Both the position numbers and the translations under genes were made by a program. From the human T2T-CHM13v2.0 reference genome, Homo sapiens, in the NCBI RefSeq assembly GCF_009914755.1, contig NC_060925.1: a DNA stretch of 64,000 nucleotides; one strand, 5' to 3'. The notes beneath the pieces were generated by a model. The model was not told the origin of the DNA. It searched no databases and saw only the letters and a program-made list of their open reading frames with translations. Shown piece after piece: positions 2,556-10,176 of this stretch. How positions within the stretch are numbered: the first letter of the stretch is position 1; the number at the start of each line of letters is the position of its first letter.

Positions 2556-2720
2556 TATCTCCAGAGGCAGTTGGATTTTTGTCAGCTGTTGGGGTGTTTA
2601 TTATCTTGATGCTGCTCCTTTTTCTCTATATTAATAAGAAGTTCTGTTTTGAAAATGTTGGCGGGTTTCCAGATCTTGGTTCAGAATACAGTACAAGGAA
2701 GAATTCACAAGATAAAATTT
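2556..2720 (+). CDS. SYT14: SYT14 coding exon encoding the N-terminal transmembrane segment ((V)SPEAVGFLSAVGVFIILMLLLFLYINKKFCFENVGGFPDLGSEYSTRKNSQDKI); 165 nt, phase 1-1
   Basis: Acceptor ttttttttctctag at 2542-2555 and donor gtaagt at 2721. Translation matches my recollection of human synaptotagmin-14 (hydrophobic TM followed by NKKFCF). Splices in frame to 9961 (T|AT = Tyr). Confidence 0.95.
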
Positions 2721-3789: not shown

Positions 3790-4280
3790 ATGACAACTTT
3801 GTACTTTTAAATTTTATTGAGTAGTCCCAAAGAGCTTTTTGTTTATGTGGATTATATCTATTGATATGTACCATATTAGAGTTAAAACTGAGAAAATTTA
3901 AAAATATTATTTACCAATTTAAAACAGAAAATTTAAAAATATTATTAATTTATTTTTTTAAAAAAACAAGACTATTACATGTTAATATAAATATCATCTT
4001 TAAATTTTACAAAACTATTTTCCAAAACAAAAAGAAAATGGGGAAAAAGTGGTGAGAAGAGTGATTTTGTTTTATACTTTTTACAAATCTTTTTAATGAC
4101 TAGCATAATGGAAGACAGCTGGATTCTCATTTCTGCCTCTACATTCAATCTGTCATGTAGCCTCTGGATAACTCCAGTGTTCACTTGTGAGCCAATGAGA
4201 ATGAAAAAGTTAAGTACTCCCTTGCTGTTATTGTAAAACTAGTCTTGACCTTGAGGATCCCTTGAAAATGTCTCAGGGAA
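3790..4280. mobile_element. hAT-Charlie DNA transposon relic (Charlie4a-like)
   Basis: ttattgagtagtcccaaagagctttttgtttatgtggattatatctattgatatgtaccatattagag resembles the recalled Charlie consensus; subfamily unverified. Confidence 0.5.
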
Positions 4281-4926
4281 CTTAATTTTTCTGAGCCTTG
4301 TTTTTCTTTCACTTATTAAATAGGAATAATAATATTTACCTCCTAGAATTACTGTAAAATCAAGTAGGATAAAATGTGTCAATTACAATGCCTTGCATAT
4401 AGTAGCCACTCAGCAGGTGTCCACACTTCCTCTCCCCTATTCTTACCACTATGCAAAATTGTTTAGATATTTCTCTTTAATATTTTTCTTAATGTGAAAT
4501 GATACTGGGTAGTTTATTAGTAAGATAGGGTAGTTCCCTTACGTAGACTGTTAATAAGCAAACTAAAAGTACATAATAAAAATCCTTTTTATACTTCTTT
4601 TTTCAGGTGTAGAATAAAAAACCAATAGTATTTGAGGGAAAAATATTGTCTTGCTGCTGTTATAATAGCTGTGGAGTGAGAAAAAATGTCATAACGTTTA
4701 AACCAAGTGGTTTGATTTTTTTTTTCCGGAAGAATCTTTACTTCAACATATTTCTTTCAATGCATAATGTATTTACAGAAAGATTAAAAGCTACAATGTG
4801 AATTGCTAATATTGAGCTGACGAATAGCAACATTTAAGTAAATGTTAAATTCAAGTTCCAAAGTGGTTGATATTTTCAGAAGAGAAAATTCCATTATTGC
4901 ACCTTTTAGGAACAAGGAATTAGAAA

Positions 4927-6022
4927 ATGGCATTTTTCAGAAATTTCCAACAGAATCTGCCTTCAGTGTCCTCTCTAGTAGACACAATCAGTAGTGCTGT
5001 AGAGGATTTGACCACTGCTGTTGGGGAGGTCAGCTATGCTTTAACTGACTCAGTTGCTGAGCAGGTAACAAGTATGATGAGTGGCTTTCGCCCAGAAGAG
5101 GAAAGCTCTGTAGCAGAAGAAGCTGTAGACACTTCTAAACAAAAAAATGCCGGGTTAACAGAAGTCTCCAAAAACACTAATTGTCAGAAAACACAAGCCA
5201 ATTTAGAGCATAGAGCAAAGCAAATAAATACTTGTAAAACTTCACTAAAGCAAGATCAAGGAATACATGAAGAAAGAGTATTTAAACATGTTAATGATAG
5301 GCAACAAACTCTATCAGAATATCAAGACACTGGTAATACTGGTGATTCTTCTTTGAAAGGCTACATGAATAATGGTGGGATATCAGTTATCAGACAGAAT
5401 ACAAGGGCTGGATCTATTTGTCAAGAACTTGAAAGTACTGACAGATGTAAAACAATTGGAGTAGGAATTTCCAATAATGGTAAGAATGATTTAAAGGAGG
5501 TAGGATATCAAGAAATGAAAGGAAATCAGAAGAATGCCAACGGAATAAACAAATTGTATGAGCAAAAGAAATATGTTGGTACAGATAATTGTAAAAAGGA
5601 GGAATATTCTAAATCTCGACATGTATATTTGGGAAGAGATCAAGAGAATATGGGGCATTTCAATAAATGTAAACATCTTCCCGATTTAGGGCATTCAGAT
5701 CATTTAAAGAAAGCTGAAAAATGTGTTAAAAGTAAAGCATCCAAAGGGAATGAGTGTTCAGGAAATGAATGTTCTTTAAAAGATATTTTGACAAGCAATA
5801 GGCATATGACACAGAAATCTATTATAAAAGAAGACATACATCCAGCACCATCAACTAATTCTAAAGATAAGTTATCTGGGAAAATTGAAGAACAAATAAA
5901 TTCAACGAAATACTGTAAAGTGAACGAAGACATAAAACCAAAGAAAACTGAGGCCATTTCTGCCAAGAAAGGAACAGCAAAGAGTAAAGATGAAAAATAT
6001 TCTAAGATAATACCAGAAAAAG
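4927..6022 (+). CDS. SYT14: Large alternative coding exon of SYT14 giving a new TM-less N-terminus (MAFFRNFQQNLPSVSS...IIPEK, 365 codons + 1 nt)
   Basis: 369-codon ORF in AT-rich non-repetitive DNA; Kozak aaaATGG; in-frame TAG at 4921-4923; donor AAG|gtgagg at 6022/6023 in phase 1, joining exon 9961 in frame (G|AT = Asp, then NSYMDKDE). Confidence 0.8.
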
Positions 6023-9960: not shown

Positions 9961-10176
9961 ATAATTCCTACATGGACAAAGATGAGCATGGTTCATCCTC
10001 TGAAAGTGAAGATGAAGCGCTGGGTAAATATCATGAGGCCTTATCCAGAACACACAATTCCAGACTACCACTGGCAGATTCTAGACAAAGGAACTATGCT
10101 TGGGAAACAAGGCAGAAATACAGTCCTCTATCGGCAGAGTATGATGGATACAGTAGTGAAGCATCAATAGATGAAG
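9961..10176 (+). CDS. SYT14: SYT14 coding exon, cytoplasmic linker (NSYMDKDEHGSSSESEDEALGKYHEALSRTHNSRLPLADSRQRNYAWETRQKYSPLSAEYDGYSSEASIDE); 216 nt, phase 1-1
   Basis: Acceptor ...gtcattccaaatag ending at 9960 and donor GAAG|gtaaga at 10177. Peptide matches recalled SYT14. Confidence 0.95.

What the first reader, a model, noticed from the sequence alone, without database searches (positions are those of the whole stretch)
4927..5088. The alternative N-terminus looks like a long ALPS-type amphipathic helix, a possible swap of membrane-anchoring mode
Seen: in residues 1-54, hydrophobic residues fall at 3,4,7,11,14,17/18,21,25,28,32,35,39,43,47,50/51,54, a near-continuous 3-4 spacing. The other face is Ser/Thr/Gly/Asp/Glu, and there is no Lys or Arg between residues 6 and 54. 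Known: ALPS motifs (ArfGAP1, GMAP-210) and 11-mer-repeat helices (perilipins, synucleins) bind curved or packing-defect-rich membranes this way. Inference: exon choice switches SYT14 from an integral vesicle protein to a peripheral curvature or lipid-droplet sensor. The long polar spacer before the C2 domains would suit a tether.
Basis: partly seen in the sequence, partly recalled or inferred. Interest (0 to 1): 0.8.

Follow-up and report, generated by a model that had tools for sequence, protein, structure and literature searches.

The report
SYT14 alternative N-terminal amphipathic helix
An alternative first coding exon of human SYT14 leaves out the membrane-spanning segment and starts instead with a roughly 50-residue amphipathic helix kept since the common ancestor of sharks and mammals; it is probably a peripheral lipid-surface anchor, but this is untested.

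Summary
Window 4927-5088 (+) encodes residues 1-54 of a 365-codon alternative SYT14 exon. The listed hydrophobic positions are correct, and Lys/Arg occur only at residues 5 and 55. The hydrophobic moment beats all 2000 shuffles.

- **Conservation:** the N-terminus is conserved in SYT14 models from cartilaginous fish, teleosts, frogs, reptiles, birds and mammals. The spacer behind it is not.
- **Anatomy:** a short aromatic unit (residues 3-9), a Pro-Ser hinge, and a helix of about 40 residues.
- **Periodicity:** in all 22 orthologues tested the long helix peaks at 96.5-98.5 degrees per residue (about 11/3), not the 7/2 of ordinary coiled coils.
- **Strict ALPS is not met:** six acidic residues form a conserved ridge on the polar face (net charge -2 to -7). 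The polar face is as conserved as the hydrophobic one.

Best reading (0.45): a lysine-free, acidic, 11/3 lipid-surface helix that replaces the transmembrane anchor. It would be biased away from anionic membranes.

Main rival (0.35): a partner-binding helix.

SYT16's TM-less N-terminus is analogous, but homology is not detectable. No paper on this N-terminus was found in the held library. Function is inferred only.

The parts
4104..4926 (+). Annotated 5' untranslated part of the alternative exon. The start is 4104, or 4607 after an AG acceptor.
   Evidence: Exon starts come from the hub's gene table. The acceptor at 4607 and the AT-rich sequence (GC 0.29-0.32) were read. There are 15 upstream ATGs from 4104 and 5 from 4607. 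The last one, at 4842, opens a 50-codon uORF that overlaps the main start. An in-frame TAG lies at 4921-4923.
4927..4959 (+). Residues 1-11: a short N-terminal aromatic amphipathic unit (M-A-F-F-basic-x-F/L-Q-Q-x-L).
   Evidence: M1 and F3 are invariant, and A2, F4, F7 and L11 are at 90% or more in 22 orthologues. AF2 gives helix 3-9 and 2-9. By my reading of the N-termini printed, 173 of 179 named SYT14-type models start directly with M-(A/S/T)-(F/L)-(F/L).
4960..4965 (+). Residues 12-13: a Pro-Ser hinge and helix N-cap.
   Evidence: P12 is at 86% and S13 is invariant. AF2 breaks the helix at residues 10-13. Two-residue insertions sit on either side of it in many lineages. They put the two units out of phase: the moment at 100 degrees over the whole stretch falls to about 0.1-0.2.
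4966..5088 (+). Residues 14-54: a long amphipathic helix with 11/3 periodicity. It has a Val/Leu/Ile/Met stripe, Ser/Thr/Ala flanks, and a conserved acidic ridge (D19, E26, D27, E34, D41, E45) plus Y37.
   Evidence: AF2 gives helix 14-53 and 14-52. The best angle is 96.5-98.5 degrees in 22 of 22 orthologues. The mean moment is 0.425 at 11/3 phasing and 0.192 at 7/2 phasing.
5092..5136 (+). Residues 56-70: an acidic tail behind the helix (net -6 in human). It is poorly conserved in sequence.
   Evidence: Composition is. The mean majority-residue fraction is 0.32, against 0.66-0.67 in the helix.
5137..6022 (+). Residues 71-365: a Lys-rich polar spacer (net +17 in human). It is predicted to be disordered. 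The exon ends in phase 1 at a GT donor.
   Evidence: Composition is. pLDDT is 22-34 in the full-length model. Identity to non-mammalian spacers is 19-30%. No Pfam family matches.
9961..10176 (+). The shared downstream exon that both the TM exon and the alternative exon join in phase 1. The junction reads ...PEK|DNSYMDKDEH.
   Evidence: Reading. The same junction is seen in orthologue models P0005 and P0007.
2556..2720 (+). The canonical transmembrane exon, which the alternative isoform lacks.
   Evidence: Translation gives a KD19 maximum of 2.89. Joined to the 4607 acceptor, its frame meets TAA after three codons (my reading).

Best explanation
The alternative first coding exon makes a SYT14 without a transmembrane segment. 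Its extreme N-terminus is a two-part amphipathic module. The first part is a short aromatic unit (residues 3-9). A Pro-Ser hinge follows. The second part is a helix of about 40 residues whose hydrophobic stripe repeats every 11/3 residues.

I infer that this module is unfolded or weakly helical in solution. I also infer that it folds flat onto a lipid surface, inserting its Phe/Leu/Val/Ile/Met stripe into packing defects. This would give the isoform a reversible, peripheral anchor in place of the integral one. About 500 disordered residues would then separate the anchor from the C2 domains.

The helix has no Lys/Arg and carries a conserved acidic ridge (net -2 to -7). It should therefore avoid strongly anionic membranes such as the inner plasma-membrane leaflet. 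It should prefer weakly charged, defect-rich surfaces: small or curved early-secretory membranes, or lipid-droplet monolayers.

Shown: the sequence anatomy, periodicity, conservation and absence of a TM segment. Inferred: lipid binding, the target membrane, and the role of the acidic ridge.
For: - **No TM segment:** the TM exon is skipped and the isoform has no TM-like stretch.
- **Moment:** it is far above shuffles in human (0 of 2000) and in all 22 orthologues (0-4 of 500).
- **Periodicity of the long helix:** the best angle is 96.5-98.5 degrees in 22 of 22 rows. This includes rows with 2-, 4- and 6-residue insertions. The moment at 11/3 phasing (0.425) is twice that at 7/2 phasing (0.192). 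By established knowledge (recalled), a straight 11/3 stripe is what surface-lying helices of synucleins, apolipoproteins and perilipins show.
- **Composition:** 9-20 Ser/Thr/Gly in 42-48 residues, about one hydrophobic residue per turn, and many Val. This resembles the ALPS and PLIN4 chemistries described in PMC6164224 (passages).
- **Structure prediction:** AF2 predicts helices 3-9 and 14-53 at low confidence with no tertiary packing. This is what an isolated amphipathic helix usually gives.
- **Conservation:** residues 1-55 are conserved from cartilaginous fish to mammals, and the spacer is not.
- **Precedent for an acidic helix:** a net-negative amphipathic helix can still reach lipid droplets and is kept off the anionic plasma membrane (PLIN4 2K->Q mutants, PMC5889406, passages).
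- **Paralogue:** SYT16, whose usual form lacks a TM domain (PMC9393329, passage; Craxton's file S32), also starts with an FF..F unit. A strongly amphipathic helix follows it (0 of 2000 shuffles).
Against: - The polar face is as conserved as the hydrophobic face. The majority-residue fractions are 0.66 and 0.67, and the entropies are 1.29 and 1.16.
- The polar face carries six conserved acidic residues and a conserved Tyr. Generic lipid sensors need only composition, so this points to a specific partner.
- A net charge of -2 to -7 opposes binding to most cytosolic leaflets.
- The stripe is mostly Val, which is a weak membrane inserter.
- No experiment, localisation or binding datum exists in anything I could read.
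- The human 5' UTR holds 5-15 upstream ATGs, one of which overlaps the start. Translation may therefore be inefficient.
- The 207 and 84 matches are database gene models; of the 120 and 84 rows listed, many names carry isoform X numbers or 'PREDICTED'. Many of the shorter representatives run on past the exon end into intron-like sequence. None of this is transcript or protein evidence.
Confidence: 0.45

Rival explanations
1. The helix is a protein-binding element. Its hydrophobic stripe packs against a partner or against the rest of SYT14. Its conserved acidic ridge contacts a basic surface, for example the isoform's own Lys-rich spacer, a C2 polybasic patch, or another protein. The exon would then swap a membrane anchor for a docking or autoregulatory module.
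For: - Polar-face positions are as conserved as hydrophobic ones.
- D27 is invariant, and D41, E45 and Q46 are at 90% or more, in the 38-sequence full-length alignment.
- Y37 is at 82% although it lies on the polar face.
- S13 and S15 are invariant.
- In human, residues 1-70 are net -10 and the spacer is net +17.
- The weak best PDB and Pfam similarities are to helices that pack in bundles: Vps24 144-187 at E 0.064, and ApoLp-III at 3.6e-4 in 1 of 22 members. Neither is significant.
Against: - No partner is known.
- The pLDDT of the helix did not rise in the full-length model. It was 40-45, against 51-62 for the fragment alone. That model was poor overall (mean pLDDT 35), so this weighs little.
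- The spacer that would supply the basic counter-surface is not conserved in sequence.
- High Ser/Thr/Val/Gly content gives low intrinsic helix propensity, which is more typical of fold-on-surface helices.
Confidence: 0.35
2. The helix is an ordinary left-handed coiled coil that dimerises or oligomerises the TM-less isoform.
For: Residues 11-39 taken alone peak at 102 degrees, a period of 3.53. They read as three V-x-x-hydrophobic-x-x-A heptads (my reading). The Pfam LPP leucine-zipper family is touched by 6 of 22 members, but only at E 0.073 or worse.
Against: - Over the whole helix, 7/2 phasing halves the moment in 22 of 22 orthologues (0.192 against 0.425 at 11/3).
- The helix core (human residues 14-52) has no Lys/Arg in 14 of the 22 orthologues and one in the other 8, so there are no e/g salt bridges (my reading of the rows).
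- The core is Val-rich, with Ser/Thr at the flanking positions.
Confidence: 0.07
3. In human the ORF is an annotation by-product. The exon is transcribed but the N-terminus is little translated, or not at all, and has no present function.
For: The human protein is a model (isoform X3). The 5' UTR is AT-rich and has 5-15 upstream ATGs, one uORF overlapping the start. Craxton's manually curated 2010 set of human SYT14 variants does not contain it (supplementary file S33). No paper was found.
Against: The ORF stays open. Its first 55 residues are conserved from cartilaginous fish to mammals, while the adjacent spacer drifts. That pattern needs selection on the protein. The start has a strong context and an in-frame stop just upstream.
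Confidence: 0.05

Closest known systems
ALPS motifs (GMAP-210 residues 1-38, ArfGAP1)
   Same: A long amphipathic helix that is rich in Ser/Thr/Gly, has about one hydrophobic residue per turn and lacks Lys/Arg. Like GMAP-210, it sits at the extreme N-terminus, ahead of a long extended region (PMC6164224 passages).
   Different: ALPS polar faces lack charged residues. Here six conserved Asp/Glu form a ridge with net charge -2 to -7. The sequence, polar face included, is strongly conserved. The hydrophobic stripe is mostly Val rather than bulky residues.
11-mer-repeat lipid-surface helices (perilipins including PLIN4, alpha-synuclein, exchangeable apolipoproteins)
   Same: 11/3 periodicity over about four 11-residue turns. 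The chemistry is rich in Val/Thr/Ala, as in PLIN4 (PMC6164224 and PMC5889406 passages).
   Different: Those helices carry Lys at the polar/apolar boundary and have mixed charges. This one has almost no basic residues. It has only 42-48 residues, against hundreds in PLIN4. There is no significant sequence match to the Perilipin or Apolipoprotein Pfam families.
TM-less N-terminus of the paralogue SYT16 (Strep14)
   Same: It occupies the same place in the gene: an alternative exon joining, in phase 1, the exon that begins (D/V)-N-S-(Y/F). It also has an FF..F unit followed by a strongly amphipathic, highly conserved helix.
   Different: No detectable sequence homology: BLASTP E = 2.5, and hhalign probability is 1.1% (single sequence) and 0.8% (profile against profile). 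The SYT16 helix is shorter (about 30 residues), near neutral (2 K/R and 2 D/E in most rows), peaks at 99-100.5 degrees, and contains Trp and Tyr.
Hsp12 / class A amphipathic helices
   Same: Acidic residues are concentrated at the centre of the polar face (PMC6164224 figure legend).
   Different: Class A helices have basic 'wings' at the interface. Here the interface is Ser/Thr/Ala.

Membership tests
ALPS motif | An amphipathic helix with a significant hydrophobic moment | tested here: met
   18-residue windows give muH 0.28-0.53. No shuffle of 2000 reaches the observed moment. AF2 predicts a helix.
ALPS motif | [quoted passage not shown] | tested here: inconclusive
   The human polar face (14 positions) holds 6 Ser/Thr/Gly and 6 Asp/Glu. 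The interfacial positions hold 8 Ser/Thr/Gly of 13. Small polar residues are abundant but not dominant.
ALPS motif | [quoted passage not shown] | tested here: not met
   D19, E26, D27, E34, D41 and E45 are conserved as acidic in most of the 22 orthologues. Net charge is -2 to -7.
ALPS motif | Sparse hydrophobic residues, about one bulky residue per turn | tested here: inconclusive
   There is about one hydrophobic residue per turn. However, 7 of the 13 on the stripe are Val rather than bulky residues.
ALPS motif | Unfolded in solution, and folds on highly curved or loosely packed membranes | not testable with these tools
   This needs CD and liposome assays.
11-mer-repeat lipid-binding helices (perilipin / synuclein / apolipoprotein type) | 11/3 (3.67-residue) periodicity of the hydrophobic stripe | tested here: met
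   The best angle is 96.5-98.5 degrees in 22 of 22 orthologues. The moment at 11/3 exceeds that at 7/2 in 22 of 22.
11-mer-repeat lipid-binding helices (perilipin / synuclein / apolipoprotein type) | Sequence membership in the Pfam Perilipin, Synuclein or Apolipoprotein families | tested here: not met
   No family reaches its cut-off. ApoLp-III appears at E 3.6e-4 in 1 of 22 members and Apolipoprotein at 0.02 in 1 of 22.
11-mer-repeat lipid-binding helices (perilipin / synuclein / apolipoprotein type) | Basic residues at the polar/apolar boundary (feature recalled; for Hsp12 stated in PMC6164224) | tested here: not met
   There are 0-3 K/R in the 42-48 residues, and none in human.
Left-handed coiled coil | Heptad (7/2) phasing of the hydrophobic core over the whole helix | tested here: not met
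   The moment at 102.9 degrees is 0.192, against 0.425 at 98.2 degrees, in 22 of 22 rows.
Synaptotagmin-14 (isoform of the gene) | The N-terminus is joined to the SYT14 linker and C2 domains in the same protein | tested here: met
   P0007, P0011, P0027, P0029 and P0034 each match Pfam C2 in two stretches, and P0005 in one, downstream of the N-terminus. One search found 207 proteins at E <= 0.001. All 120 listed rows carry PF00168, and nearly all are named synaptotagmin-14.
Homologue of the SYT16 TM-less N-terminus | Detectable sequence similarity | tested here: not met
   BLASTP E = 2.5. hhalign probability is 1.1% and 0.8%. The own-genome search with residues 1-61 finds only the window itself.

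The most novel reading that the evidence does not exclude
The module is a distinct kind of synaptotagmin anchor: a lysine-free, acidic, 11/3 amphipathic helix kept since the jawed-vertebrate ancestor. It would steer a TM-less SYT14 to weakly charged, defect-rich lipid surfaces such as lipid droplets or small early-secretory vesicles. Its conserved acidic ridge would double as a docking site for a basic partner. Together with the analogous SYT16 helix, this would define helix-anchored synaptotagmins as a parallel branch to the TM-anchored ones.
Probability: 0.2. Interest if true: 0.7.

Novelty: new variant of a known kind. Interest (0 to 1): 0.45.

Why it matters
SYT14 and SYT16 are among the least understood synaptotagmins. 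Loss of SYT14 function has been linked to neurodevelopmental abnormalities (Craxton 2010, passage). By recall, it has also been linked to recessive ataxia.

If one promoter choice turns an integral vesicle protein into a reversibly bound peripheral one, the two isoforms would act on different membranes. Variants or knock-outs that hit only one first exon would then have different consequences.

The helix is short, sharply bounded and deeply conserved. Its role is therefore directly testable with peptide biophysics and GFP fusions. It also offers a natural example of an amphipathic helix with an acidic polar face, a chemistry that has so far been explored mainly through engineered PLIN4 mutants.

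Tried and rejected
- **Homodimer prediction** for residues 1-60, two copies. The verdict was 'no answer' (score 0.02, mark 0.32). It is evidence neither way.
- **Full-length AF2** of P0040 (866 aa) with a 38-row alignment, to see whether the helix docks on the C2 domains. The model was poor overall (mean pLDDT 35). Helix pLDDT was 40-45 with no rise, so nothing can be concluded.
- **Homology to the SYT16 N-terminus.** My by-eye alignment (FF..F, E-x-L-x-x-A-G-D) was not borne out: BLASTP E = 2.5 and hhalign probability 1.1% and 0.8%. The invertebrate TM-less Syt16 N-termini in Craxton's file S30 look unrelated.
- **Pfam** on the exon product (0 families) and on all 22 members of A1 (nothing at or near a cut-off).
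- **PDB profile search.** The best hit is Vps24 residues 144-187 at E 0.064, which is not significant.
- **ESM Atlas.** The best score is 0.82, below the 0.9 lead threshold. The hits are Rv1893-like and chlorosome envelope CsmB/CsmC clusters.
- **Own-genome search.** An alignment query was not accepted. A protein query found only the window itself.
- **Fukuda 2003**, the original Syt XIV/Strep14 paper, is not held. Whatever it says about N-terminal oligomerisation could bear on the rivals, and I could not read it.
- **FFAT motif (VAP binding).** Rejected by inspection. The residue after F-F is Lys/Arg in 73% and more of rows, and there is no acidic flank. The motif definition is recalled.
- **SNARE-like 16-layer heptad motif.** Rejected because heptad phasing fails beyond residue 39 and no SNARE family matched.
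- **Signal peptide or TM.** Rejected, since the KD19 maximum of the N-terminus is 0.73-1.2.
Full report
**What is there**

Window 4927-6022 (+) is the coding part of an alternative SYT14 exon. Its annotated starts are 4104 and 4607, taken from the hub's gene table.
- The ATG at 4927 has A at -3 and G at +4. An in-frame TAG lies at 4921-4923.
- The exon encodes 365 codons plus one base. It ends at a GT donor and joins exon 9961-10176 in phase 1, giving ...PEK|DNSYMDKDEH.
- The canonical exon 2556-2720 joins the same downstream exon in the same phase. It encodes the transmembrane segment, with a 19-residue Kyte-Doolittle maximum of 2.89.
- The alternative isoform therefore lacks the TM segment. 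In eight full-length models the N-terminal 60 residues reach only 0.73-1.2. The overall maximum (0.91-1.8) lies far downstream, in or behind the C2 region.
- If the TM exon were spliced to the 4607 acceptor, its frame would stop after three codons (my reading).

- The finding's coordinates (4927-5088) are residues 1-54.
- The listed hydrophobic positions are correct. Lys/Arg occur only at 5 and 55. Asp/Glu are at 19, 26, 27, 34, 41 and 45.
- The moment of residues 1-54 peaks at 100 degrees (0.386). No shuffle of 2000 reaches it, and z is 4.85.
- 18-residue windows give muH 0.28-0.53 up to window start 39.
- No other part of the 365-residue exon product comes close.

**Conservation**

- A full HMMER pass with residues 1-61 over 1.84 billion cluster representatives gave 36 hits at E <= 0.001.
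- Two of these (P0025, P0032) are internally repetitive proteins matched in several stretches. I set them aside as spurious after reading them.
- Of the other 34, 29 match from their own first residue. P0022, P0026 and P0030 carry upstream extensions, and P0006 and P0036 lack the first residues.
- Six of eight longer representatives scanned contain C2 domains downstream.
- A word-indexed search with names found 207 proteins of 640-2000 aa at E <= 0.001. Among the 120 listed, nearly all are named synaptotagmin-14. They come from primates, rodents, carnivores, bats, cetaceans, afrotherians, marsupials, birds, turtles, a crocodile and a lizard. The human entry is 'isoform X3', 694 aa.
- A third search started from the most divergent tetrapod-like representative, P0015. 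Its best matches were a catshark and three skates (79-85% identity). Further down the list came frogs, geckos and snakes.
- Teleost representatives carry the C2 region of syt14b (P0011, P0027, P0029, P0034) or the linker of syt14a (P0028). I judged this against Craxton's labelled alignment.
- The N-terminus therefore goes back at least to the jawed-vertebrate ancestor.
- Human residues 1-55 share 24-48 identities with 17 orthologues. The spacer shares 58-73% of aligned residues in three mammal-like rows and only 19-30% in the other fourteen.
- By my reading of the N-termini printed, 173 of 179 SYT14-type models start directly with M-(A/S/T)-(F/L)-(F/L). One (P0098) has the TM exon upstream. 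Five have short upstream extensions.

**Anatomy**

I aligned the human sequence with 21 of the 34 real hits (alignment A1). I left out 13:
- P0006 and P0036, which are N-terminally incomplete.
- P0008, which is near-identical to P0007.
- P0013, an aberrant C-to-T-like sequence.
- P0004, P0019, P0021, P0022, P0023, P0026, P0027, P0030 and P0033, which are close to rows already kept or carry upstream extensions.

What A1 shows:
- M1, F3, S13 and S15 are invariant. A2, F4, F7, L11, S16, V25, A31, E45 and V47 are at 90% or more.
- Insertions of two residues flank Pro12 in many lineages. Insertions of four residues occur inside the helix in four rows, all of which keep 3-4 spacing.
- AlphaFold2 on A1 gives helices 3-9 and 14-53 with a break at 10-13, at mean pLDDT 55.
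- Rows with a 2-residue insertion lose a common face across the hinge. The moment at 100 degrees falls to 0.1-0.2 over the whole stretch.
- The module is therefore two units, not one 54-residue helix.

**The long helix is 11/3, not heptad**

- For the stretch equivalent to human residues 13-54, the best angle is 96.5-98.5 degrees in all 22 rows (median 97.5).
- The mean moment is 0.425 at 98.2 degrees, 0.372 at 100 degrees and 0.192 at 102.9 degrees. The 11/3 value beats the 7/2 value in 22 of 22 rows.
- This speaks against an ordinary left-handed coiled coil. It fits a straight stripe lying on a surface.

**Why it is not a strict ALPS motif**

- I assigned faces from the local moment.
  - The 15 hydrophobic-face positions have a mean majority-residue fraction of 0.67.
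  - The 13 interfacial positions also have 0.67.
  - The 14 polar-face positions have 0.66.
  - Residues 56-70 have only 0.32.
- The polar face holds D19, E26, D27, E34, D41, E45 and Y37.
- Net charge of the helix is -2 to -7, with 0-3 K/R.
- The review PMC6164224 (passages) defines ALPS by a Ser/Thr/Gly polar face lacking charged residues. That feature is not met here.
- The same review describes PLIN4's Ala/Val/Thr stripe, and Hsp12's acidic centre with basic wings. This helix shares the first, and the acidic centre of the second, but has no basic wings.
- In PMC5889406 (passages) a PLIN4 helix made net negative lost plasma-membrane binding. Once made more hydrophobic, it could still reach lipid droplets.
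- This is the basis for my inference that the acidic ridge biases the helix away from anionic membranes.

**The paralogue**

- Craxton 2010 (passages; supplementary files S32 and S33) lists TM-less SYT16 forms.
- The paper also notes TM-less human SYT14 transcripts. Those in her alignment, however, start inside the TM exon, not with this exon.
- I located the human SYT16 exon in the window's own genome (L003).
- Its N-terminus also has an FF..F unit followed by an amphipathic helix. The moment is 0.48-0.53 at 100 degrees, and no shuffle of 2000 reaches it.
- It is highly conserved in mammals and snakes: one search found 106 proteins, whose N-termini are printed.
- It joins the homologous downstream exon.
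- Sequence homology with the SYT14 module is not detectable.
- The two modules are either very diverged or convergent, and I cannot tell which.

**Other searches**

- Pfam, the PDB sequence search and the ESM Atlas gave nothing significant.
- The homodimer job gave no verdict.
- The full-length fold was too poor to test docking. It did show the spacer and linker as disordered (pLDDT 22-34) and C2A as folded (64-83).

**Literature**

- Five full-text searches found no paper describing this N-terminus or any amphipathic helix in SYT14.
- Fukuda 2003 is not held.
- Subscription journals are mostly outside the library, so 'not in print' holds only for what was searched.

**Verdict**

- The general idea, that the exon swaps an integral anchor for an amphipathic helix, is the best-supported reading (0.45). 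The helix is an acidic 11/3 helix rather than an ALPS motif.
- The equal conservation of its polar face keeps a partner-binding role close behind (0.35).
- A canonical coiled coil (0.07) and a non-functional ORF (0.05) are unlikely.
- All functional statements are inference.

Noticed in passing
L003 1468-1599 (own genome, contig C14), with A2: The TM-less N-terminus of human SYT16 is itself a strongly amphipathic helix of about 30 residues behind an FF..F unit. It is nearly neutral and highly conserved in mammals and snakes. Three of 106 SYT16 models (P0197, P0215, P0240) place a TM-like stretch upstream of it in the same protein.
   Followed up: partly
P0019, P0021, P0023, P0026, P0027, P0033, P0034; and P0022, P0024, P0037, P0038: Fish-like spacers behind the helix share a second conserved, Trp-rich motif. 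One set has the form LEWEWRDGCWRVKK, and the other EEWEWCYAPSKGWYRKR. The human exon product has no Trp at all. Its function is unknown.
   Followed up: no
window 4104-4926: The annotated 5' UTR is AT-rich (GC 0.29-0.32) and holds 15 upstream ATGs, or 5 counting from 4607. The last, at 4842, opens a 50-codon uORF that overlaps the main start. This may throttle or regulate translation.
   Followed up: partly
P0013: This is an 89-aa library representative of the same N-terminus. In it Ser, Thr, Ala and Pro positions are systematically replaced by Phe/Leu, Ile and Val, as if translated from C-to-T converted (bisulfite-like) DNA. I left it out of the alignment.
   Followed up: no
window 4927-5109 against the whole own genome: Residues 1-61 match nowhere else in the assembly. 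The SYT14 retrocopy on chromosome 4 that Craxton mentions therefore gave no match to this exon.
   Followed up: partly
PDB chain 6zh3_B residues 144-187 against A1 positions 21-64: There is a weak resemblance (E 0.064, not significant) to the acidic helix region of the ESCRT-III protein Vps24. The two share a hydrophobic-DD-x-hydrophobic-x-x-V-G-D-V pattern. It is probably compositional.
   Followed up: no
P0098, P0131, P0132, P0134, P0137, P0099: A few SYT14 gene models extend upstream of the conserved Met. One rodent model includes the TM exon. Four grouse models add 22-23 residues, and one opossum model adds two. These are likely model artefacts, but they were not checked against DNA.
   Followed up: no
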